A program made the position numbers and the translations under genes. Positions 6,141 to 63,476 of a DNA stretch of 64,000 nucleotides are shown here, piece by piece. The DNA is from Eledone cirrhosa (Eukaryota), in contig OZ024743.1 in assembly GCA_964016885.1 (NCBI GenBank), positions 268,460,001 through 268,524,000 on the forward strand. Reading direction: 5' to 3'. The first letter of the stretch is position 1; every line of letters begins with the position of its first letter. The notes beneath the pieces are model-generated. The model saw only the letters and a list, made by a program, of their open reading frames with translations. It ran no database searches and was not told the DNA's origin.

Positions 6141-6163
6141 TTTCCATTAAATTGTTTGTTATA

Positions 6164-6260
6164 ATTGTTTCTACTTTTGGCACAAGGCCAGCAATTATCC
6201 CAGTGCATTACTGGTACTTTATTTTATCGACCCCGTAAAGATGAAAGGGAAAGTTAACCT
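6164..6260 (-). mobile_element. SINE 3' fragment (Meta-domain-like family)
   Basis: Reverse complement matches 62245-62333 (CCTTTCATC..TACGGGGTCGATAAAATAAAGTACCAGTAATGCACTGG...GGCCTTGTGCCAAAAGTAGAAAC). Confidence 0.8.
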
Positions 6261-12989: not shown

Positions 12990-15325
12990 TTATAATCCCT
13001 CCGATAAGTCGTTCGACCTGCGACGAGTCCACGCCACGACTTTACCATTTAATAAACGCACGCAATTGCCGTCGCAGGTCGATGAACAAACAGAAACACA
13101 ATTTAGTATAGCTAGATCCGAACTTAGAAATATTATAGAACAGTATAGCAAGAAGCATAATAGAATGGAGGCCAAGCAACTGGGAGAAAAATCTGCAAAT
13201 GGCTTGCGTAAGCTCATGCAGCGCTCGCGTAATGGAGAGATAGCATGCTTTCCAACAGACAAGTCTGGCAGAATGTCGGTTGACAGCCTGCCAAACTACA
13301 TCCAGGCAATGCAACCCCACATCACTAACACAAGAGAGGTAACACCATAGGAGCATGAGGATAGAGAAAAAGCCCTCAATGCCCATATGGTGATGTGGAC
13401 GAATATAATGCAGCCCAACAAAAGGACTGCCAACAAGTTCCAGGCCTGGAACAATGACGTGCCGGCGTTGTATGGGCTTCGAAAAGACCATAAAACGGGC
13501 AGTGACCCTGTCACGGGACCACCAACACGGCCAGTCTGTGGAGCTAACATTGCTAGTAACTACAGACTGTCCTACTTCCTCTCCCTGATCATACGCCCCA
13601 TCATTGAAATGTCCCCAGATGTATGTGACAGCACGGAGGACCTCCTCAGCAGAATCGGCGAGAGTAACCGATCTAGGGACCTAACAAACTGCATAATAGG
13701 TAGTATGGATGTTGTGTCCCTGTATCCATCTATTGACGTGGATTTTGCTGTGGAGAAATGCGTAGAAATGATCAGTGAGAGCAATGTTGAGTTCCGTGGG
13801 ATTGATACCAGTGAGCTGGGACTCCTACTTACACTTACCTATAGTAATAATCACCTAGACACATATGACCTTAGCAACCTGTGCCCTACAAGACCAGCAA
13901 GAGGCAGACCACCTACCATTACCTCAATGGCCAAGAAAACCCACACAGATAGATGGAACGGGTGGACCAGAGCCATACGGACACCCGAAAACCACGATGA
14001 ACTGAAGAAAATGATTGCACATGCGGTAGGGGCCAGCATAAAACTAACCCTTAAGGAACATATGTTCAAATTTAATGGAAAAACATATGCCCAAGAGGAA
14101 GGAGCAGCCATTGGTGTTAGCATTGCAAGCGACATAGCTAACTTATTCATGGTATGGTGGGACAGTAGACTTATGCTTAAACTCAAAGAACAATTAGAAG
14201 ACCCCTTAACCCTGATAATGTACTCCCGCTACGTTGATGATATAAACATCGTAGTTAAGACACCCCCACTAGAGAACAGTCAGGAAATAGAGAAAAACAC
14301 AATGGAAAGCATCCAGCAAATAGCTAACTCCATCCACCAGAGTATTAGAGTTACTATAGACTACCCAAGTAAACACCCCAACCATCGATTACCTGTACTA
14401 GACACAGAGCTCTGGTTAGATACCATTAATAACAAAAAACAAATCCTCCATTCCCATTATGCCAAACCCATGACTTCCAAACATCTGATCCACCGAAACT
14501 CGGCTGTTTCGGACCATACCAAAATCAACATACTGATTGCGGATTTGGTACGGGTGATGAGAAACGTGTCCCGCATGTGCAACCCCGAATAACTAGAGAG
14601 ACACATACAACACTTCATCCACCGTATGCAGTTCTCTGGTTACAATCAGAGAGACAAAATCAGAGTTTATAGAGGAGCCAGAACCAAATGGGAAAAAATG
14701 GTAAATAACGACATAAATAGGACCTGCCCCTTGTATAGGAGCAAATTTTGGAATAGAATAGAAAGAACTAGGAATAAGGCTAATAGAATAAACTCATGGT
14801 ATGATAGCAATAAATACCAGAGTGTAATGTTCATCGATACAACCCCTAGAGGTGAATTAGCTTACAAATTTAGAAGGGCCCTAGATAAACATAAACTCAA
14901 TATTAAGATAGTAGAAAGACCAGGTACCTCCGTCAAAACACTTATTAGCAAGACATACCCTTTTCAAAGACCCCCATGTATAGATAAGAAATGTATAACC
15001 TGTAAAATAAGCCCCCATATTAACTGTAAAACTAGAAATGTAGTGTATAGCATAAGATGTACTGAAGGACAATGTAGAGACAAAAATATAGTGTACATAG
15101 GTGAGATAGCTCGTAGTGTAGCGGAACGGATAAATGAACACTGGCGAGACCTTCAAGATAGTAAAGAATCATCTGTACTCTACCAACACGCTAAAATAGA
15201 ACACAAGGGTAAATTAGAGAACATAGAAATAAAAATAGAATCTACACACAGAAAAGACGCAATGTTTAGACAAATCACAGAGGCAATAAACATAAAATAA
15301 TTACAACCAAAATTAAATCGATGAT
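12990..15325 (+). mobile_element. Penelope-like retroelement, RT + C-terminal GIY-YIG, disrupted (family B, copy 1)
   Basis: In-frame ORFs 13066-13350, 13387-14592 and 14626-15300 separated by single stops; DKS motif, YGLRKDHK..RPV, SMDVVSLYPSI, QEEGAAIG, RYVDD, CxxxxCxxC..C linker, VVY..C..YIGE..R...R..EH. Confidence 0.93.
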
Positions 15326-19994: not shown

Positions 19995-20090
19995 ATAACT
20001 TTCCCTTTCATCCTTACGGGGTCGATAAAATAAAGTACCAGTAATGTACTGGGTATTTCCTGGCCTTGTGCCAAAAGTAGAAACAATTAT
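19995..20090 (+). mobile_element. SINE 3' fragment (Meta-domain-like family)
   Basis: CCTTTCATCCTTACGGGGTCGATAAAATAAAGTACCAGTAATGTACTGG..GGCCTTGTGCCAAAAGTAGAAAC. Confidence 0.8.
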
Positions 20091-20170
20091 ATATATACAT
20101 ATATATAATATTTATATATATATATATATATATATATTATATTATATTATATTATATTATATTATATAAC

Positions 20171-20222
<52 letters not shown>

Positions 20223-20306
20223 AACATTATATATATATATATATTTATATATATGTATATATAAATATTATATATATATATGTGTATGTATATATATATA
20301 TATATA

Positions 20307-20405
20307 GTAATAATAATTAAATTGAAGACTAAAATCCAAAGAGGGCTCGATAAGGATAAATATATATCAAATATATAAGAACCGTAGAGCAAATCTGTTA
20401 TTTTA

Positions 20406-20410
<5 letters not shown>
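20307..20410 (-). mobile_element. Mini element in (TA)n (family C), minimal version of 51089-51305
   Basis: GAAGACTAAAATCCAAAGAGGGCTCGATAAGGATAAAT..AAGAACCGTAGAGCAAAT near-identical to 51107-51177, joined to CTGTTATTTTAATA (= 51292-51305). Confidence 0.75.
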
Positions 20411-20436
<26 letters not shown>

Positions 20437-20528
20437 ACGAAGGAAATGTGGTAAGGAACCAGGTGGACCATAATGCACCAAAGTACTCAATACTTAGGGT
20501 TGTAGAGTGGGTAATAGGAACAAGTAAG

Positions 20529-20622
20529 ACCCCGACGGCTGAGCTCAAGCTGTTTCGACGGCTAATTCTGGACTGAATGAACATTTATTCTGGTATTTAA
20601 ATAGCCGAGCTTATCAAGGGGT
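20529..20622 (-). ncRNA. Type I hammerhead ribozyme, U3-A8 variant core, long stem II
   Basis: ACCCC-TTGATAA-[G..CGGCTA...TAGCCGTC]-GAA-ACAGCT tgagctc AGCCGT-C-GGGGT; GUC triplet; one stem III mismatch. Confidence 0.75.
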
Positions 20623-21834
20623 AATTCCATATATGGTCAAACAGATAATCACCGGGATTGGTCACATCACAAGTTAGTAGTAAATCTGTGGTGGCAAATT
20701 GGTGGGTGAAGGGGTCGCTGAACCTGCCGGTAGGAGAAAAGGTGAGAGGAGGTTGAGTAAACCCATTCATGCGTTGGTAGTGCCAGCTACAGCTGGGTGT
20801 GAGGTCAAAGAAGATACTGGGGAGGGGGAGGGGGAGGAAGTCGAAACGGTAAGTAGAACAATGACGGGTAAAACTATAAAAAGTACTGAGAGTGAAAAAA
20901 AAAAAAAAAAAAAAAAAAATAAGCAAAGTCTGGTTACTAAGACTTAAGTCTCTCGCTATTGCTAGGCTAAAGAAATACATAAATAAATAAATAAACAAAT
21001 AAGTGAATAAAACAATAGATAAATAAATTAAAAAAAATATATATATATTTATATATATATAATGAAGAATAAAAAATAAATAAAAATAAACTAGGTGGGA
21101 CGGAAATAAAGGGACCCTTATACGAGGTATAAGTGCGTGTATCGTACGGTGACGGGTCAACAAAGGGGGGGGGGGGCAAAATACTAAAGAGACTACCACG
21201 AAATAATAAAGGTTTCTACCCCAATCACAGGGCCAGCAACCACCCAGAGCAAGAAAGTAAACTAGTACGAGAATATAATTCAGGGTCCCGCAAAAAAATA
21301 CTCGTGCTAACTCTAAGGGTACCGCCACGAAACAAAAAGTCTTATACAAGCTAAATGAAAGATCGTACGAAGTAAAAGTAAAGAACGGAAAATTAATACA
21401 GAACACCCCCACCCCCCCCACCCCACCCCCCAAAAAAAAAAGGGAAAAAGAGGAAAGAAATACTGGATAAACGAGAAATTAAAGCAAAGATGCCACTAAG
21501 AAATATAGAAGGCACGGAAAAAAGGGACAGCGGTCGGAGAAGGGGGCAAGTATCCGAAGTCTAGCACCTCTGATATAAAAAGCGGAGTCAGCCAAATCTA
21601 TCATAGAATAGGGGAGGGGGTGGTAGTGCTGAAGCTACAAGGGACTGAGGGGCTACCTCGGGTGGGCGAAAAAGACGACGACAAAGAAAGTGAACTGGGG
21701 TAGAAGGACTAGGGAGGGATGGGGGGAAGGAGGAAATATAGAGGAAGCGATAAAAAATGTAAAAGAAGATCTTACGACTCCATTGGCAAGCAGGGGTTAC
21801 CCCTTACAAAATAGGCAAGTGGGGTGTTATAGCC

Positions 21835-23387
21835 CTAGTCTACCCCCCCCCCCCCCCCCGGGTCATTATGGGGTTTGAGCGCGAGGTAAGTCCTACGTAA
21901 TCGGTGTTTACATGCAGTAACCAGTTCATCTTTCTTGTTTAGGAGTTGGTCCGTCGAAAACAGCATTTGTAAAGTTTCCTCCGAGCATAAATTGCACGGA
22001 CGGCGTCCTCCCGTGTAAGAGTTGGCTCTGGACAGTAATTTCCAAGTGAGATCATAGTTGATGTTGTTGTCCTTGAGGTCCCATATGTGGCCCGAAAGTG
22101 TAGTGGCGTGACGCCGGGCCGGGTTTCGGAAGGTATGTCTGTGTTGGTATAGCCGGGTCTTGAAGTCACATGCGGTTAATCCTATATAAGCTTTGTTGGA
22201 GGTGTCCGTGCTCACGTTGCACTGGTAGATCACATTACGGTCTCTGCATCTGTTGTCGAGGGGGCAACTGGATCTATCTGGACAGTTGCACCTCCTGGTC
22301 GGCTCTCCACTGTTATTTAGGTTGTTTCTTCCATCGGGGTTGAGTTTTTTGTTGTTGGAGGAGACGATGTTTTGTGCGAAGTTAGGTGTAGTGCTGTAAG
22401 AGAGTTTGATGGTATTTTTGTTAATTATGTTGTGGTAGCGGTGTTGTGGTGGGAAGTGTTTTTCAATGAGCCTAAAGAAAATTTTCCCGATGGGAGTTGT
22501 CACCTCGGCGTTGTGGGGAAGATTGAACCATGTTACATTGCGTGAGCGGCGGTGTCGCCTGCTGGTTCCGCTAATGGGAGCTGGACAGTAGGATATTTCC
22601 TCCCGGAAGCCACTCCGCTTGAGGGCCTGAATGTAGTAAGGCGCATATTCATCGAATATCTTCTCATTGGCTGACAAACGGGATATGTTTTTGACCAGGT
22701 TGTTGGTGATGTTCCTAGGATGGTTAGATCGGCGGTGGATGTAGTGCAGGTTGTCATTGGGTTTCCTGTATGGGTAGTACAGGTCATTATTGAGATCGAG
22801 GGTAACGTCCAGGAAATTAACTCGTGTCTGGGACGTTTGTAGGGTTATTTTAAATCCCCAGTCGCGGAAGAAGCTGATTAATTGTTTACGGACCCGATCT
22901 GTACTATTGGGGTTGTACCCTTTAAGGGTAAGGAGCCCATCATCACGGTACAATCCACCACCGAAGGCAGGAAACATATCGGTGAGTTTGGCTATAAGGA
23001 ATAATCCTATAAGATCTGTAACCTCCGCCGAATGCGTAGCGCCCATGCTGACGTCGAAGGGTGAGTCGGGAGCTCTTTTTATCCATTTGGAGTTGTCAAA
23101 GAGTAAGACTGTCTTCCTGGCGTGGAGGATGATTTTTCTTTCCTGGTCGGTGATGGGCACGAGTGCTTCGGCGAAGTCCAAGGCGGCAGTAAGTAGCGGT
23201 AATGTGATAGAAGCATAGTAGCTCTCTATGTCGAACTGGATAAATTTAGTGTCTCGTTTATCCTCCATATTGCTGAACCATGAGATAACTTCCTGGGTGT
23301 TGATCCATAGGCTAAGTCGGGCGAGTTGCTTGACTTTTGGTATCACGCGGTCTAGGATTTTTTTGCTGATTCTCCGTATGTCGGACT
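21835..23387 (-). pseudogene. 5'-truncated Penelope-like RT + GIY-YIG reading frame (open over ~515 codons)
   Basis: QFDIESYYASI, FDVSMGA..SAE, GLYRDDG, VNFLDVTL, YIHRRSNHP, CNC..CPL...C, VIY.C..YIGLT..FKTR..H, CNLCSEE; frame continues to 23387 (SDIRRISKKILDRV), where the inversion starts. Confidence 0.92.
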
Positions 23388-23755
23388 TTTTTTGGGGGGG
23401 GGGGTTCTGTATTAATTTTCCCTTCTTTACTTTTACTTCGTACGATCTTTCATGTAGCTTGTATAAGACTTTTTGTTTCGTGGCGGTACCCTTAGAGTTA
23501 GCACGAGTATTTTTTTGCGGGACCCTGAATTATATTCTCGTACTAGTTTACTTTCTTGCTCTGGGTGATTGCTGGCCCTGTGATTGGGGTAGAAACCTTT
23601 ATTATTTCGTGGTAGTCTCTTTAGTATTTTGCCCCCCCCCCCCCCCCCTTTGTTGACCCGTCACCGTACGATACACGCACTTATACCTCGTATAAGGGTC
23701 CCTTTATTTCCGTCCCACCTAGTTTATTTTTATTTATTTTTTATTCTTCATTATA

Positions 23756-23786
<31 letters not shown>

Positions 23787-24186
23787 TATTTATTTATTTA
23801 TCTATTGTTTTATTCACTTATTTGTTTATTTATTTATTTATGTATTTCTTTAGCCTAGCAATAGCGAGAGACTTAAGTCTTAGTAACCAGACTTTGCTTT
23901 TTTTTTTTTTTTTTTTCTCTCAGTACTTTTTATAGTTTTACCCTTCATTGTTCTACTTACCGTTTCGACTTCCTCCCCCTCCCCCTCCCCAGTATCTTCT
24001 TTGACCTCACACCCAGCTGTAGCTAGCACTACCAACGCATGAATGGGTTTACTCCACCCCCTCTCCTCTTTTCTCCTACCGGCAGGTTCAGCTACCCCTT
24101 CCCCCACCAATTTGCCATCACAGATTTACTACTAACTTGTGATTTGACCAATCCTGGTGATTATCTCTTTGACCCTATATGCAATT

Positions 24187-24280
24187 ACCCCTTGATAAGC
24201 TCGGCTATTTAAATACCAGAATAAATTTTCATTCAGTCCAGAATTAGCCGTCGAAACGGCTTGAGCTCAGCCGTAGGGGT
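24187..24280 (+). ncRNA. Type I hammerhead ribozyme, U3-A8 variant core, long stem II
   Basis: ACCCC-TTGATAA-(24199-24252 stem II)-GAA-ACGGCT tgagctc AGCCGT-A-GGGGT; perfect 6-bp stem III, 5-bp stem I, GUA triplet (predicted cut after 24275). Confidence 0.8.
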
Positions 24281-24290
24281 CTTACTTGTT

Positions 24291-24327
<37 letters not shown>

Positions 24328-32399: not shown

Positions 32400-33289
32400 T
32401 GTAAGATGTTTTTGTTATGTGTTTTCGATTTTCTGCTTTTTCTTTTTTGGGGGTGGTGGTGGTTGGGGGGGGGGGGGGGGGATCATTGTCGATGTCCCTT
32501 TCGTCTTCACCTCACGATAGGGAGGGCCCTGTGACTCTTTCGGATGATGGTGGTAGTGTATGTTTGTTTGTGCGGAAGTCTATGTGTGTTTTTTGTGTTT
32601 GGAAGAGACAGGGAGATATTTTTCACGGAGTACCAGGGTGGTTTTGTTGGAGTCAGTTGTCGTTGGTGGTCGTGGAAGGGGTGGGGGTTCAGCTGCTGCT
32701 GTTGGTCCTTGTTCTGTCGTTGTTGCTGGTGGTGGTAGTGGTGTTGACGTTGTTGTTCTCTGCTGGTGTTGGTGCTACTGCTGCTGTTTATTTTTCTGCG
32801 TGGTTTTGTGTCATTGATTTTGTAGCGGTTTGGGTAGCACCTGGTGTTGGTAGTATGGGGAACCTTCTGGTTCCCTGCCTTGCATTGAGGGTAGAAAGCG
32901 CTTGCATCTCTATTTTACCCACCCAACTAAAACATGCAAATCCACTCAGCCTGGTAGGCGAATGAAGTCTACGAGTTTGTGGATGTCATCTGGTTTTATG
33001 TAGAACTGTACCTCCACATAAATCCCAGACTATTTCTCTTTTTGTATTCGTGTTTAGCTCCACTAGGACGATGCAGATCAATGTCCAGAAGATGTTTACT
33101 TATGGTGGGATTATTGAAATCTTACCCCTCACTCTCCTTCTTCCGAGATAAGAAGTGTACAATATATAGTTCTATCGCTTAGAGGGACAAACTGAAATGC
33201 CTGCAAACTGACTTGAACTGGCGTTGTGTTGTATATCTGGCCTTATTTCTTCCAGTACTCTCTATATTTCTGTCTGATTTGTTAAAAGG

Positions 33290-33450
33290 TAGGGGGAATG
33301 GCGGTATCGGTAAAGCGTCGGACGCCATACTTCGTGGCATGGAGTTATGTCCCTTTACGTCCTGAGTTCAAATCCCGCCGAGGTTAGCTTTGCTCGATTT
33401 AATCAACTTTCCCCACCAAAAAATGCTGGCCTTGTGCCCATTGTAGAAAT
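33290..33450 (+). mobile_element. tRNA-derived SINE, internally deleted
   Basis: A-box-like TGGCGGTATCGG, B-box GAGTTCAAATCCC, 3' GGCCTTGTGCCCATTGTAGAA; matches 62147-62333. Confidence 0.8.
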
Positions 33451-46070: not shown

Positions 46071-46259
46071 TAGGGCGGTGGATTAGCAGTATCGGTAGAG
46101 TGTTGGACGCCAGGCTTTGCAACATAGAGTTATGGCCCTTTATGGCCTGAGTTCAAATCCCGCCGAGGTTAATTTTGCCTTTCATCCATGCGGAGTCGAT
46201 AAAATAAAGTACCAGTAATGTACTGTATAATTGCTCGCCTTGTGCCAAAAGTAGAAACA
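46071..46259 (+). mobile_element. tRNA-derived SINE (Meta-domain-like family), full length
   Basis: A box TAGCAGTATCGG, B box GAGTTCAAATCCC, core GCCTTTCATCC..GGAGTCGATAAAATAAAGTACCAG. Confidence 0.85.
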
Positions 46260-46559
46260 ATCATTATCAACAGTTGAAAAATACTAGCATAGTGGAATGT
46301 ATAGACATAACTTTTTTATGAATATTGATAGTTGGTTTTATTTTTACCCGCTTCAATTTATTTATTCCTATTTTGCCTCGATATTTTACAAATTTTTTTA
46401 CTGACCATTATACGGCTACTTTTACAACTATTTTATGATTCGGCTGCTTATTACTTTTTATTTAATGATACATTAGGTTTAGAGAAAGAATGATGTACTC
46501 ATGCGCAGAGGTGCTATAAAATAGCTCGTTACAAACCATTGTTGCCTACTCGCATGTAC

Positions 46560-47173: not shown

Positions 47174-49495
<2,322 letters not shown>

Positions 49496-51037: not shown

Positions 51038-51088
<51 letters not shown>

Positions 51089-51092
<4 letters not shown>

Positions 51093-51305
51093 ATAATAAT
51101 AAATTTGAAGACTAAAATCCAAAGAGGGCTCGATAAGGATAAATGTATATCAAATATATAAGAACCGTAGAGCAAATATCTATTAAAATAACAGATTAAA
51201 GTTTAAGCCAAGAATCGCTGCTTTCACCCTTAACGGGATCTTCTGAAACTAACAAAGGGTGAAAGCAGCGATTCTTTGCTTAAACTTTAATCTGTTATTT
51301 TAATA
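51089..51305 (-). mobile_element. Mini palindromic element in (TA)n (family C)
   Basis: 51-bp arms 51181-51231 / 51255-51305 (one mismatch) plus one-sided extension 51089-51180. Confidence 0.8.
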
Positions 51306-51311
51306 AGTATA

Positions 51312-57960: not shown

Positions 57961-60153
57961 ATGGCCATGAAACTCTAATAGAAACCTATCGTAGTTGTCA
58001 AGATTTGTAATCACTTTGTATCGTATTATATATGTTTGGCTAAATTTCCGGAAGATGCAACAATCAGGTGAGATAATGATTTAGCGATTTAATGATAAAA
58101 TTAAATAATAGCCGTATTTCATTATAGCTATGAACATTTATTGCTATATAACAATGACAACAATCTCCAAATGGATATTAATAATGTAGTCATTTATGCA
58201 TTGTCCATGTAAGACTATACAAAAGACATTTAATCTGATAGTGAAGTTATTTTCCGAAACGAGGTATGCAGGTATATAATGCTTAAATATATCTTGGCCC
58301 AGTAATACTCTGATCAAGGTCCAGTTTGACAATGACAATATGACAGAATAAGGATGGGTCACAAGAAGCAAAAAAAGAAAAAAATGCTGGCCATAAATTT
58401 AAAAAAAAAATAGTATAGAAGGAAAAGGTTGATTAATCTATCGAGGGAATGGTGGATTGAAGCAATCAACAAGTCTGAAATTCAATACATAACGAAATGC
58501 GTGTGGGCAGCCATTATGTAGTTAATCAAACTGCTATAAAAAATAACCATGTCTGACTTATTTCAAACAATGTCTCCTTAAAAATAAGGTATATGTTGGA
58601 CAATGGACTTTTATATATACAGAAACATGGAATATATTTGATAATAGGTTAATCAATGACGGCTGGCTTGGGGCTAATTTATAAGACAAAGATTTTTTGA
58701 CACAATGATTACTTTCAAGTAAATCCGTACTCAGAACACGATGTATAAATTTAGTGATTGATATCCTACCTGATGAATTGTAACCAAATTTCCAAGTATT
58801 GTGTAGCCAAATAACTCCAACCTTGTTTGGTTTAGCTGGTTGGGAAGTAGTTATTTGCCTGTAAACATTTACTCTACATTAGAACGAGTGTTTAGTGGGT
58901 GCATTGGTGGTTTATATCCTCTGACAGATACTGATTTGTATCTAAAGCTAGCAAATTTAATTGAAAGCTGTCAAATTCCATTTGACAGTGGAATATAATT
59001 ATCAATTTTAGACATTGGTAGCGCTGCAGTCTTTTTACTATCAGTGGAATATTTGGGTACAATGTTTAGACTAGTCTCTCATTAGTGGATATTTCGCAGC
59101 TAAATGTTTCTCATGGGAAAATAATCCTTCTTATGTAAGACGATATTTGATCGTTAGACCAGTATCGCCAGTCTTATAAGCAAAAATCAAATGAATAAAA
59201 CATTATGGAGGCAGCAAAGTAGATCTACGTGATCACTCGACTCGCAAGACTAGCAATTAAATATACTTTACATCTTGAGATGGAAAGACATTGGATAATG
59301 TAGACCTGCAATGTTTTATATCAGAATACTATATGGAGCGATCACTGTTTAAAACCCTGCCTCATAGATCTGTTAGATGAGAGCTGAATGTAATGTGACA
59401 TCAAAAGAAGAAGAATGTCAGTTCCAGTAAAACAAGGAGACAATGATGGAATTGTGGATGGAAAATGTGTCGAAAATGGAAAACGTTAGTATAGAGCAGT
59501 GATATAAATGACAAATATCTTTAATTCATTCCTTCGTTTCTCTCTCTGTTTGAAATACTACGTCATACATATTTTTTCTCATAATGGTAAAAATGTATAT
59601 TCATCAAAAAATTGTATAATACATATAATAGTAAATCAATCAGTGTAATAATTTAGTTCATATCAATAAGGTTAAATATATGTCACATATGTTTTAATCA
59701 TTTTTTTAAAGATGCCGCACGCTTAACATTGCTGGAAATGTCAGTCAAATACCCTTCAAAATACACGCTACCGTCTTAAAAAAGAAAGATCTATTCGTTA
59801 ATATAGTCATCGATATACGATATTTAAAAAAGAAAATTACCAGATGGTCACGGATGAAACTCATTCGCCTGTTACTTTACTGTATGATGGATAACAACAA
59901 CAAAAGTAATTATTTTTTCTAAAACCCTACGTACCATGACTCCTGATTTAAACAAAGATATGTGGAAGAACGAATTGTAGGAAATTCGGTCTTCCATTAC
60001 CAGAACAAAGGTGAATAAACAAATAGACACACACACACACATAAATATATAAATATATATAACGGAAGAAATGTGGTAAGGAACCAGGTGGACCATAACG
60101 CACCAAAGTACTCAATACTTAGGGTAGTAGAGTGGGTAATAGGAACGAGTTGG

Positions 60154-60249
60154 ACTCCAACAGCTGAGCTCAAGCCGTTTCGACGGCTAATTCTGGACTA
60201 AATGAACATTTTTATCCTGGTATTTGAATAGCCGAGCTTCTCAAGGGGT
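60154..60249 (-). ncRNA. Type I hammerhead ribozyme, U3-A8 variant (partly decayed)
   Basis: ACCCC-TTGAGAA-...-GAA-ACGGCT tgagctc AGCTGT-T-GGAGT; GUU triplet, stem I mismatch. Confidence 0.65.
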
Positions 60250-62146
60250 AATTCCAGATATGGTCAAAGTGAAAGTCACAGGGATTGGTCAAAAGTTTGT
60301 AGTTGAGACATAATAATTCTATGATGGCAATTTGTGGAGGGAAGGGGTAGCTAAACCTGCCAGTAGGAGAAAGAGGGAGAGGGGGAGGAGGAGACCCATT
60401 CATGCGTTGATAGTGCCGGCTACAGCTGGGCGTGAGGTCAAAGAAGATACTAGGGAGGGGGAGGAAGTCGAGACAGCAAGTAGAACATGCGCCTTATTAC
60501 ATCCAGGCCCTCAAGCGGAGTGGTTTCTGGGAGGAAATATATTACTGTCCAGCTCCCATTAGCGGAACCAGCAGGCGACACCGCCGCTCACGCCATGTAA
60601 CATGGTTCAATCCTCCCCACAACGCCGAGGTGACAAGTCCTATCCGGAAAATATTCTTTACGCTCATTGAAAAACACTTCCCAATACAACACCGCTACCA
60701 CAACATAATTAACAAAAATACCATCAAACTCTCTTACATCACTACACCAAACTTTGCACAAAACATCGTCTCCTTCAACAACAAAAGACTCAACCCCTAT
60801 GGAAGAAATAACCTAAATAGCAGTGGAGAGCCGACCAGAAGGTGCAACTGTCCTGATGGATACATTTGCCCCCTCGACAACAGATGCAGAGATCGTAATG
60901 TGATCTACCAGTGCAACGTGAGGACGGACACCTCCAAAAAAGCTTATATAGGATTAACCGCTTGTGACTTCAAGACCCGGCTATACCAACACAGACATAC
61001 CTTCCGAAACCCGGCCCGGCGTCACGCCACTACAATTTCGGGCCACATATGGGACCTCAAGGATAACAACATTACCTATGATCTCACTTGGAGATTACTG
61101 TCCAGAGCCAACTCTTACACGGGAGGACGCCGTCCGTGCAATTTATGCTCGGAGGAAACTTTACAAATGCTGTTTTCGACGGACCAACTCCTAAACAAGA
61201 AAGATGAACTGGTTACTGCATGTAAACACAGATTGCGTAGGACTTACCTCGCGCTCAAACCCCATAATGACCCGGGGAGGTAGACTAGGGCTATAACACC
61301 CCACTTGCCGATTTTTTAATGGGTAACCCCTGCTTGCTAAGGGAGACGTAAGATCTTCTTTTATATCTTTTTATCGCTTCCTCTATATTTCCTTCTTCCC
61401 CCATCCCTCCCTAGTCCTTCCACCCCAGTTCTCTTTCTTTGTCGTCGTCTTTTTCTCGCTCACCCGAGGCAGCCTCTCGGTTCTTTGTAGCCTCAGTACC
61501 CCGACCCCCTTCCCTTATTATATGATAGATTTGGCCGACTCCGCTTTTTATAGTAGATGTGTTAGACCCCGGATACTTGCCCTATTATCCGACCGCTGCC
61601 CCTTTTCCGTGCTTTCTATATTTCTTAGTGGTATCTTTGCTTTAATTTCTCGTTTATCAGTATTTTTTTGGGGGGGGGGGGGGATGGGGGGGATTCTGAA
61701 TTAATTTTCCGTATCAAATTTTACTTTTACTTCGTACGAGCTTTTATGTACCTTGCACTAGAACTTTTGTATCGTGGCGGCACCCTTAGAGATAGTATTA
61801 GTATTCTTTTTCGGGACTCTGAATTATTATTTCGTATTAGTTTACTTTTTTGCACTGGGTGGTTGCTGGCCTTGTGCCTGGGGTAGTAACTTTTATTATT
61901 TCGTTTTAGTTTCTTTAGTATTTTGGTCCCTCACTTGTTGACCCGTCACCGTAAGATACTCGGTTTATTACTTATACCTCTTAAAAGGGTCTCATTTTAA
62001 TTCCGTCCCACCTAGTATATATTTTTTTTTTTTTTTTTTAAGCCTAGCAATAGTGAGAGACTTAGGTCGTAGTAACCAGAAATTGTTTATTTATTTTTTT
62101 TTTTTTACATTTAATTGCTTTTTAACACCCAGTATTTTTCTATATA

Positions 62147-62333
62147 AAGGGCGGTGGATTGGCAGTATCGGTAGAGGGTCGGACGCCATGCTTTCAAGCA
62201 TAGTTACGTCCCTTTACGATCTGAGTTCAAATCCCGCCGAGGTTGACTTTGCCTTTCATCCTTACGGGGTCGATAACATAAAGTACCAGTAATGCACTGG
62301 TTAATTGCTGGCCTTGTGCCTAAAGTAGAAACA
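62147..62333 (+). mobile_element. tRNA-derived SINE inserted in the Penelope 3' region with a 16-bp TSD
   Basis: A/B boxes, Meta-like core; AGTATTTTTCTATATA at 62131-62146 and 62334-62349. Confidence 0.9.
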
Positions 62334-62605
62334 AGTATTTTTCTATATATTTACCCCTTATTGTTCTACTTACTGTCTCGACTTCCTCCCCCTCCCCCTC
62401 CCTAGTATCTTCTTTGACCTCACGCCCAGCTGTAGCCGGCACTATCAACGCATGAATGGGTCTCCTCCTCCCCCTCTCCCTCTTTCTCCTACTGGCAGGT
62501 TTAGCTACCCCTTCCCTCCACAAATTGCCATCATAGAATTATTATGTCTCAACTACAAACTTTTGACCAATCCATGTGACAATCACTTTGACCATATCTG
62601 GAATT

Positions 62606-62701
62606 ACCCCTTGAGAAGCTCGGCTATTCAAATACCAGGATAAAAATTTTCATTTAGTCCAGAATTAGCCGTCGAAACGGCTTGAGCTCAGCCGTCGGGG
62701 T
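62606..62701 (+). ncRNA. Type I hammerhead ribozyme, U3-A8 variant core, long stem II
   Basis: ACCCC-TTGAGAA-[..CGGCTA..TAGCCGTC]-GAA-ACGGCT tgagctc AGCCGT-C-GGGGT; perfect stems I and III, GUC triplet (predicted cut after 62696). Confidence 0.82.
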
Positions 62702-63476
62702 CCAACTCGTTCCTATAAATATATATATATATGTGTGTGTGTATGTGTGTGTCTGTTTGTGTTTGTGTGTATGTATATGTGTGTGTGTGTGTATGTGTGC
62801 ATGTGTTTATCTGTGTGTTTGTGTTTATTTATATATTCATTTGTTTATTCACCTTTACTGGTGATGGAAGATCGAGCTTCCTACAACTTGTACACTCCTT
62901 AAAAACACTATGATGTGTTTATGGAACCTTGATCTAAACGAATGATCTATATTATTGGTCTAAACACATGATCTATATTAAATTGAATCAGAGAAAGGCA
63001 TCACAAATATTATCATCAAATGCTCATCATTCAGAAAATAGCATAGGAAAGCGAGCATTTTTGTTCTACATATTTTTCAATCAAACTTGAACTATCGTAT
63101 TCCTATTTGACCGGCAATTGTAATTGGGATGAATGAAGTACGTCATTTAACATAATTCATTCATCGTTTCTATGATATTTATGAGAATCATTAACAATGG
63201 CAACAAGTTATTCGCTTTGTATTCCCAACAACGATAGACTCAGCAAATTGTCAGAGCTTTTCATTGACGTAAAAGGTCATCTTGTCGAAATATTGTTTTG
63301 ATTGGACGGCATTGTTGTAACGATATTCATACAATTGTCTCTTCTATATCCACACACACAGACACACACAGAGACACAGACACACACACAGACATGGAAA
63401 AACACTTTTGTCGTATTCGTGTGAGAATGCAAGAGTAGTTGAATGCTGTGCGTGTATATATATATGTGTGTATGCG

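What the first reader, a model, noticed from the sequence alone, without database searches (positions are those of the whole stretch)
24187..24280. Atypical Penelope hammerhead: U3-A8 core, full 6-bp stem III with palindromic loop, 54-nt stem II (4 copies)
Seen: ACCCC-UUGA(U/G)AA-[54 nt closed by CGGCUA/UAGCCG]-GAA-ACGGCU-UGAGCUC-AGCCGU-H-GGGGU at 24187(+), 20529(-), 60154(-) and 62606(+). Within the core, variation falls at the free N7 position (U/G) and at H17 (A, C, C, U), as expected for a hammerhead. Known: Penelope hammerheads are usually minimal with a 1-2-bp stem III and act as dimers, and a C3-G8 to U3-A8 swap is a tolerated variant. Inference: this form could cleave as a monomer, while the self-complementary UGAGCUCA also permits dimers. 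A standard CUGANGA motif search would miss it. The short-arm endpoint lies only ~19 nt downstream of the predicted cut.
Basis: partly seen in the sequence, partly recalled or inferred. Interest (0 to 1): 0.8.

Follow-up and report, generated by a model that had tools for sequence, protein, structure and literature searches.

The report
Long-armed Penelope hammerhead with cleavage footprint
These four motifs are copies of an unusually long-armed "hammerhead" RNA at the ends of a very abundant jumping gene, and about 300 genomic copies of that gene begin exactly at its predicted cut site, which suggests it likely cuts a small share of the element's RNA in living cells although most copies were made without that cut.

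Summary
The four motifs are real. They sit in the pseudo-LTR arms of two truncated Penelope-like elements with Hydra-clade protein motifs; 4,647 whole-core copies match genome-wide (control 0). Corrections: the conserved stem III is 5 bp, two window copies have broken pairs, and the H17 variation is decay, not signal. U3-A8 in Penelope hammerheads is published (Cervera 2014). The long arms are not in the published Hydra table.

New here: the 5' junctions of copies peak at the predicted cut (about 300, against 13-45 at five neighbouring offsets), often as fold-backs with an untemplated base. That is about 4% of tail-bearing copies; the rest read through. Against strict function: 1,015 copies carry a C3·A8 mismatch, the lineage passed through that state and returned to U3-A8, and the peak does not track the 3-8 pair cleanly. 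Monomer cleavage is doubtful for the window's subfamilies, because a rival hairpin buries G12-A14 in folding models; the palindrome favours dimers. No RNA data were found. The scan noted similar cut-site excesses and long arms before, on other DNA.

Verdict: new variant of a known kind.

The parts
24187..24280 (+). Hammerhead copy 1 (subfamily A), U3-A8 core, predicted cut after 24275; A17 is likely a post-insertion change
20529..20622 (-). Hammerhead copy 2 (subfamily A), predicted cut after 20534; A·C mismatch in stem III
60154..60249 (-). Hammerhead copy 3 (subfamily B), predicted cut after 60159; C·A mismatch in stem I, U17
62606..62701 (+). Hammerhead copy 4 (subfamily B), predicted cut after 62696; all stems intact
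21835..23388 (-). Element 1: 5'-truncated RT + C-terminal GIY-YIG-type ORF with Hydra-clade motifs (CxCX5C, CxxC, CxH)
20434..21834 (-). Element 1: 3' UTR / pseudo-LTR with copy 2 and the 80-nt tail (20513-20434), ending about +100 from the cut in (TA)n
23394..24295 (+). Element 1: inverted short arm with copy 1, ending about +20 from the cut in (TA)n
60483..62716 (+). Element 2: long arm (endonuclease remnant to 61283, 3' UTR interrupted by another repeat at about 62017-62338, copy 4), ending at +20
60059..60487 (-). Element 2: inverted short arm with copy 3 and the 80-nt tail, ending about +100
20483..20508 (-). First of two small hairpins (RCTC...GAGY) just behind the +20 end; the second lies behind the +100 end and is present only in full-length units
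   Evidence: (positions +26-51 and +104-127 in L097); lead from earlier scan notes

Best explanation
The motif is a type I hammerhead fold in the pseudo-LTR of a high-copy Penelope-like retroelement with Hydra-clade motifs, and it likely self-cleaves after C17 in a small share of the element's transcripts, probably as a dimer or with protein help in the window's subfamilies, while most new copies are likely made from RNA that still spans the site. Shown: position 190 nt before the ATG; units of about 3.55 kb between hammerheads; copy 3' ends at +20 and +100 after the cut and almost never at it; a one-base peak of copy 5' ends at the cut. Inferred: reverse transcription starts internally at +20 or +100 and runs back over the hammerhead; on a cleaved RNA it runs off the new 5' end, adds an untemplated base, and folds back or jumps, which leaves the peak. 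Predicted only: stems II and III share nearly the same helix sequence, so a monomer can swap strands into a hairpin that buries G12-A14, whereas the loop III palindrome lets two molecules form a double hammerhead. Cleavage is likely not needed for transposition, since a lineage with a C3·A8 mismatch made over 1,000 copies.
For: Core: in 104 held copies anchored only on stems, U4, A6 and U16.1 are invariant; G5, A9, G10.1, G12, A13, A14, A15.1 and C15.2 are 103 of 104; N7 takes all four bases (many of these loci were fetched with core-bearing patterns). Subfamily C, fetched with no core constraint, keeps the core at 73-97% per column (30 rows). RNAalifold recovers stems I, II and III unprompted. 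Stem II has a G-C to A-U double change between subfamily C and the rest (4,562 against 70 matches for the two 3' strand forms). Footprint: 414 matches at offset 0, about 308 after removing G-run slippage (21 of the first 100 rows) and read-through cases (3 of 51 other matches inspected). Neighbours: 13 at -6, 27 at -3, 45 at -1, about 35 at +1 (19 of the first 100 of 186), 34 at +4. 14 of 57 inspected matches are fold-backs with 1-3 extra bases. The base before the junction is T 40, A 23, G 16 (hand count, 79 rows), with no cap-like G excess. 3' ends at the cut: 10 against 56,045 running on. Young U3-A8 tail types are over-represented at the cut relative to off-site junctions (50:21 against 22:35, p=0.0004, hand counts). 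Cofold minimum-energy dimers form intermolecular stem III in 6 of 9 subfamily representatives. PMC11167929 showed internal initiation, a protein-assisted hammerhead and no need for cleavage in another PLE.
Against: No cleavage was measured. Positions 3 and 8 do not covary: U-A 3,598, C·A 1,015, U·G 28, C-G 6 of 4,647, with about 7.5 C-G expected by independence. The peak does not track the 3-8 pair cleanly: tail type D (U3-A8, best predicted monomer fold) shows only about 2-fold over its off-site count, while the tail type mostly linked to C3 shows about 5-fold on small numbers. Against read-through copies the tail-type shift is not significant (50:21 against 46:30, p=0.23). The cut is followed by a run of four G, which can attract junctions and blurs them. 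Covariation is thin: three double-changed pairs, all on one branch (225 of 500 shuffles as high), none in stems I or III. Folding energies ignore tertiary contacts and proteins.
Confidence: 0.6

Rival explanations
1. The motif is a hammerhead-derived structure kept for folding or protein binding and cuts little or not at all. The junction peak comes from reverse transcriptase stalling or jumping at the G run at the foot of stem III.
For: 1,015 C3·A8 copies, and subfamily E is U3·G8 (18 of 21). A sister family has A at core position 4 in all 100 listed of 20,723 matches. D and C3-linked tail types do not rank as chemistry predicts. About 96% of copies read through.
Against: The peak is one base wide and at the chemical cut; the -1 count, where a stall before U16.1 would fall, is about what chance C after offset-0 junctions predicts. 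Both arms of fold-backs end at the cut with untemplated bases. Catalytic bases stay fixed while N7 and loop II turn over.
Confidence: 0.2
2. The hammerhead cleaves efficiently as a monomer and releases unit-length RNA that is ligated into circles; copies read through the site because the template is circular.
For: Stem III of 5-6 bp. Subfamilies C, D and F are predicted to form it as monomers (0.96, 0.92, 0.75). A ligated circle restores the hammerhead, so read-through copies cannot exclude it. Fungal PLE hammerheads with a long helix III cleave as monomers (PMC4209133).
Against: Window subfamilies A and B favour the rival hairpin. The palindrome GAGCUC is kept in all subfamily majorities, which a pure monomer would not need. 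A mismatch lineage amplified to over 1,000 copies.
Confidence: 0.15
3. The peak marks a transcription start site of the pseudo-LTR promoter that happens to coincide with the predicted cut.
For: PLE transcription starts lie in the pseudo-LTR (PMC8557442 passages), and a start site also gives run-off ends.
Against: Exact coincidence with H17 is needed. No excess of G before the junction, as a cap would give (16 of 79; the cap effect is recalled knowledge).
Confidence: 0.05

Closest known systems
Minimal hammerheads of metazoan PLEs, including the U3-A8 variant of Schistosoma mansoni Cercyon elements (Cervera and de la Pena 2014, PMC4209133; parts 1-2 of 4 read)
   Same: Type I topology in the pseudo-LTR, short helix I, long helix II, G10.1-C11.1, U3-A8 core (about 1,300 hits there), palindromic loop III, inverted pairs.
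   Different: Helix III there is absent or 1-2 bp; here 5-6 bp with a 7-9-nt loop. Here loop II is 37-39 nt, a 2x1 internal loop follows G10.1-C11.1, and there is no extra base between 9 and 10.1.
Hammerheads of Hydra-clade PLEs (Craig et al. 2021, PMC8557442; section 11, passages, supplementary files S1 and S2 read)
   Same: Same host architecture, (TA)n target, hammerhead near the 3' end.
   Different: All Hydra rows in file S2 have a C3-G8 core, stem III of 3-4 bp with a 1-3-nt loop and loop II of 3-10 nt. The unit here is 3.55 kb and the tail 80 nt, against under 3 kb and a 30-40-bp tail described for PLEs.
Long-helix-III hammerheads of fungal and protist EN-minus PLEs (PMC4209133)
   Same: Long helix III in a PLE hammerhead.
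   Different: Those are monomer-active in telomeric, endonuclease-lacking elements; this one is in an animal EN+ element and keeps a palindrome and a rival hairpin.
PAc Poseidon element of Anolis (Frangieh et al. 2024, PMC11167929; parts 1-2 of 4 read)
   Same: Two fixed 3' ends downstream of the hammerhead that define a tail; most insertion from unprocessed RNA.
   Different: There the hammerhead overlaps the start codon and no RNA reads were seen at the cut; here it is 190 nt upstream and genomic junctions peak at the cut.
R2 HDV-like ribozyme and its 5' junctions (Eickbush et al. 2013, PMC3774820; abstract only)
   Same: Genomic 5' junctions used as a record of ribozyme cleavage.
   Different: Different ribozyme and retroelement class; in R2 the cut defines the element's 5' end, here it affects a few percent of copies.

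Membership tests
Type I hammerhead ribozyme | Conserved core U4 G5 A6 N7, A9, G12 A13 A14, A15.1-U16.1, H17 | tested here: met
Type I hammerhead ribozyme | Watson-Crick pair between positions 3 and 8 | tested here: inconclusive
   U-A in all 4 window copies and 3,598 of 4,647 genome matches; C·A in 1,015; no covariation
Type I hammerhead ribozyme | Three helices round the core, open at helix I | tested here: met
   RNAalifold 5/6/5 bp; covariation modest and only in stem II
Type I hammerhead ribozyme | Loop I - loop II tertiary contact | not tested
   Loop II is long and variable; a distal stem I extension is only partly kept
Type I hammerhead ribozyme | Self-cleavage after H17 | not testable with these tools
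   Indirect only: junction peak at the site
Rfam hammerhead families | Covariance-model match | tested here: not met
   No hammerhead at E<=10 on 24100-24296; none among the 150 listed of 310 window matches
Minimal PLE hammerhead (min-HHR) | Helix III absent or 1-2 bp | tested here: not met
   5 conserved bp
Minimal PLE hammerhead (min-HHR) | Palindromic loop III allowing a dimer | tested here: met
   GAGCUC in all 9 subfamily majorities; cofold dimers; prediction only
Hydra-clade PLE | RWK and DKT motifs in the RT region | tested here: met
   RWR at 104 and DKT at 184 in full-length ORF of L094; RWR is a variant of RWK
Hydra-clade PLE | C-terminal endonuclease with CxCX5C linker, CxxC and CxH; CCHH absent | tested here: met
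   absence of CCHH judged by a simple motif scan; Pfam gave no family
Hydra-clade PLE | Insertion into (TA)n, pseudo-LTRs, inverted truncated arm, tail | tested here: met
Hydra-clade PLE | Generally under 3 kb, canonical hammerhead | tested here: not met
   Units 3,545-3,572 nt; hammerhead atypical against file S2. These are described as general traits, not strict ones.
Hydra-clade PLE | RT phylogeny with reference Hydra proteins | not tested
   Reference sequences were not brought into an alignment; assignment rests on motifs

The most novel reading that the evidence does not exclude
An animal Penelope-like element carries a conformationally switchable hammerhead: stems II and III have near-identical helices that swap strands to silence the monomer, and a palindrome activates it in dimers. 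Its cutting in the germline is recorded as a one-base peak of copy ends, and its core 3-8 pair went U-A, U·G, U-A, C·A and back to U-A through successive subfamilies. The genome would then be a dated natural mutagenesis series that links ribozyme genotype to in vivo cleavage and to copy number.
Probability: 0.3. Interest if true: 0.75.

Novelty: new variant of a known kind. Interest (0 to 1): 0.52.

Why it matters
Whether PLE hammerheads cut in vivo, and what for, is open: Craig et al. 2021 call their function unclear, Cervera 2014 had no in vivo evidence, and Frangieh 2024 saw no reads at the cut. A one-base peak of about 300 genomic junctions is an indirect in vivo record, and the read-through majority plus a 1,000-copy mismatch lineage suggests cleavage is optional. 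The subfamily ladder gives natural variants (U-A, U·G, C·A; with and without the rival hairpin) that can be assayed side by side. The architecture also escapes Rfam and CUGANGA searches, so such hammerheads are probably undercounted.

Tried and rejected
Rfam scans gave no hammerhead. Pfam gave no family for the 519-aa ORF remnant. Single-sequence folding z-scores were not significant (-1.29 to +0.24). No RNA holder was listed; of four runs laid, two guessed-RNA runs gave no contigs and two runs of unstated kind did, which says nothing on expression. The metagenome scan found no related locus (127 pattern hits, none confirmed), so no cross-species covariation was obtained. A first whole-core pattern had a wrong gap length and found 3 odd copies (redone). 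The labels in the first tree were off by one (redone). The first clade test was confounded by sporadic C3 rows (redone, 7 of 61 rows left out as long branches or sporadic states). The Fisher counts for off-site junctions were slightly miscounted and were redone. The end tally required bases after the cut and cannot see ends at the cut; one search tests that. Naiad membership was rejected because the endonuclease is C-terminal. H17 variation was rejected as evidence. A conserved inner hairpin in loop II was not supported (75% paired). Lunse et al. 2017 on small PLE hammerhead dimers could not be read, so overlap with its variants is unchecked.

Full report
Observation. The four motifs lie at 24187-24280(+), 20622-20529(-), 60249-60154(-) and 62606-62701(+). 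Each reads as a type I hammerhead: 5-bp stem I, core U3 U4 G5 A6 N7 A8 A9, G10.1-C11.1, a 2x1 internal loop, a 6-bp helix with a 37-39-nt loop, G12 A13 A14, stem III and H17. Copy 20529 has an A·C mismatch in stem III and copy 60154 a C·A mismatch in stem I. The arm is 54 or 56 nt. Rfam does not find it.

Context. The copies are the paired arms of two truncated insertions. Element 1 has an RT-endonuclease remnant at 23388-21835(-), a 3' region with copy 2 and an 80-nt tail, and an inverted arm 23394-24295 with copy 1. Element 2 has a long arm 60483-62716(+) with copy 4 and an inverted arm 60487-60059 with copy 3 and the tail. The protein has 171 relatives (the 120 listed are 34-55% identical). 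Full-length units in this 3.0-Gb genome measure 3,545-3,572 nt from cut to cut (12 of 16 loci fetched), with the ATG 190 nt after the cut. The ORF has RWR, DKT, CxCX5C, CxxC and CxH, the motifs that Craig et al. 2021 give for the Hydra clade (section 11), and copies sit in (TA)n. No tree with reference Hydra proteins was built. Of 277 distinct held copies with sequence after the cut, 140 end at +15-21 and 96 at +96-99 by the start of the TA run, 14 read on towards the ORF, and 27 are other.

Family and subfamilies. A whole-core pattern matches 4,647 places, control 0; the stem III-cut word matches 56,045, so most copies are stubs. Nine subfamilies form a ladder, C, E, D, D2, B2, B, then A, A2 and F, with divergence from the majority falling from about 9% to 0.4%. 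The window holds A and B. Core bases are nearly invariant while N7 takes all four bases; subfamily C, picked without any core constraint, keeps the core. H17 is C in 100 of 104. RNAalifold on 18 rows gives stems of 5, 6 and 5 bp. Double changes occur at three stem II pairs, all between C and the rest, which is weak by the shuffle control. The sixth stem III pair is lost in C, E, D and D2, but the GAGCUC palindrome is kept in all majorities.

The 3-8 pair. Counts are U-A 3,598 (by subtraction), C·A 1,015, U·G 28, C-G 6. C-G is at the level expected by independence, so there is no covariation. E is U·G (18 of 21); D2 and B2 are C·A. The tree nests the young U-A subfamilies inside the C·A ones, and a clade of all U3 subfamilies is rejected (p-AU 2e-11, 54 of 61 rows; root on C assumed from its greater decay; recombination between copies not excluded). 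So the lineage likely lost the pair and regained it. That a C3·A8 mismatch cripples hammerheads is recalled; what I read is that single C3G or G8C changes abolish a PLE hammerhead (PMC11167929) and that U3-A8 is a natural compensated variant (PMC3088659 section 8; PMC4209133).

Monomer or dimer. Stems II and III use nearly the same helix sequence. In the model the 3' strand of stem II pairs with the 5' strand of stem III and buries G12-A14 in a tetraloop. This rival has probability 0.72, 0.08, 0.98 and 0.60 in the four window copies, and stem III 0.20, 0.02, 0.006 and 0.37. In single representatives of each subfamily, stem III forms at 0.96 (C), 0.92 (D), 0.75 (F), 0.23-0.37 (A, A2, B), 0.09 (B2) and about 0 (D2, E; these representatives differ from their majority at 2-6 sites). 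Cofolding gives intermolecular stem III in C, D, B, A2, A and F. These are nearest-neighbour predictions only.

Footprint of the cut. I counted tail-bearing copies whose three upstream bases all differ from the element, at six offsets, for tail types of A, A2, F, B and B2: 13 at -6, 27 at -3 (a stricter pattern, about 40 when scaled), 45 at -1, 414 at 0, 186 at +1, 34 at +4. G-run slippage makes up 21 of the first 100 rows at 0 and 81 of the first 100 at +1. I inspected 57 matches in 52 loci (the second batch skipped most slippage rows): 9 read through, 48 are true junctions, of which 14 are fold-backs with 1-3 extra bases, 9 abut TA runs and the rest are jumps (one locus gave 5 matches). That leaves about 308 at the cut against 13-40 elsewhere; the -1 count is about what a chance C after a cut-site junction would give. 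Scaled for the pattern's 42% catch rate against about 16,400 read-through copies (79 of the first 100 of 20,821), about 4% stop at the cut. 3' ends at the cut are rare: 10. This is what a reverse transcriptase running off a cleaved 5' end would leave; R2 junctions were read the same way (PMC3774820 abstract).

Against it. By hand counts the enrichment over off-site junctions is about 13-19-fold for A and F types, 3-5-fold for the B/B2 type, about 5-fold for the C3-linked D2 type and only about 2-fold for D, which is U3-A8 (D and D2 on roughly 10-15 events). Tail type does not fix the 3-8 state, and in a double hammerhead one RNA can be cut by another's core, so the test is not clean; still, D does not fit. 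A G run follows the cut and may add a baseline of a few fold.

Mechanism. Tandem pseudo-LTR transcripts carry the hammerhead 190 nt before the ORF. The enzyme likely starts copying at +20 or +100, each just before a small RCTC...GAGY hairpin (+26-51 and +104-127; lead from earlier scan notes), as the Anolis element does at two internal sites (PMC11167929). It usually copies through the hammerhead, from uncut or religated RNA, which I cannot tell apart. A minority of templates has been cut and gives copies that begin at the cut.

Literature. U3-A8 PLE hammerheads, palindromic loop III and long helix III in fungal and protist PLEs are in PMC4209133. Published Hydra hammerheads are compact with C3-G8 (file S2). 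Searches for this combination, or for junction peaks at PLE hammerhead cuts, found no paper (open-access library only). Lunse et al. 2017 was not held and the supplements of Cervera 2014 were not read; either may hold similar variants. Also seen: passages of PMC6765202, PMC3884650, PMC7151607 and PMC7229834, and part 1 of 5 of bioRxiv 10.64898/2026.07.22.740005. Earlier scan notes report similar cut-site excesses in this and other genomes, one of them only mild, and long-armed Hydra hammerheads; I ran the junction test before seeing the cut-site notes, and they are not independent support.

Verdict. Real, and a new variant of a known kind. It probably cleaves weakly and is dispensable for most transposition. 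Interest 0.52.

Noticed in passing
window 51087-51310; L240-L269: A stub of a sister Hydra-type family (ORF about 54% identical) with its own atypical hammerhead on the minus strand near 51254-51200: C3-G8 kept but A at core position 4, 3-bp stem II, 4-5-bp stem III. 20,723 genome matches, all 100 listed with A4. Its junction profile was not tested.
   Followed up: partly
window 20304-20409: A tail-only piece of that sister family lies in the same (TA)n tract, about 25 nt from element 1's tail end.
   Followed up: partly
L061-L090, L110-L139: Subfamily C survives mostly as tiny head-to-head stubs that turn round just upstream of the 3' strand of stem II (4,562 matches to the 3' word against 296 with the whole stem II). 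Genome-wide 56,045 stem III words against 4,647 whole cores point to a large truncation hot spot in loop II.
   Followed up: partly
L097, +26-51 and +104-127 after the cut; window 20508-20483(-): Two similar small hairpins, each a few bases behind one of the two fixed copy ends, as earlier scan notes describe.
   Followed up: partly
L331 (G000:C2:332356800-332361400), L294, L335: Short tandem repeats of the tail that each restart exactly at the predicted cut, suggesting repeated template jumps to the same RNA end.
   Followed up: partly
L332 (G000:C1:265272300-265277500): A copy that begins at the cut and reads about 208 nt into the ORF side, that is an inverted arm from the 5' part of a cleaved unit rather than a full-length copy.
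   Followed up: partly
window 13769-15316 and 47947-49495: A 1.5-kb repeat in inverted orientation, 94-95% alike; not examined.
   Followed up: no
window 62148-62353, 6161-6260, 19998-20105, 33285-33393, 46072-46260: A short dispersed repeat, one copy of which interrupts element 2's 3' region; not identified.
   Followed up: no
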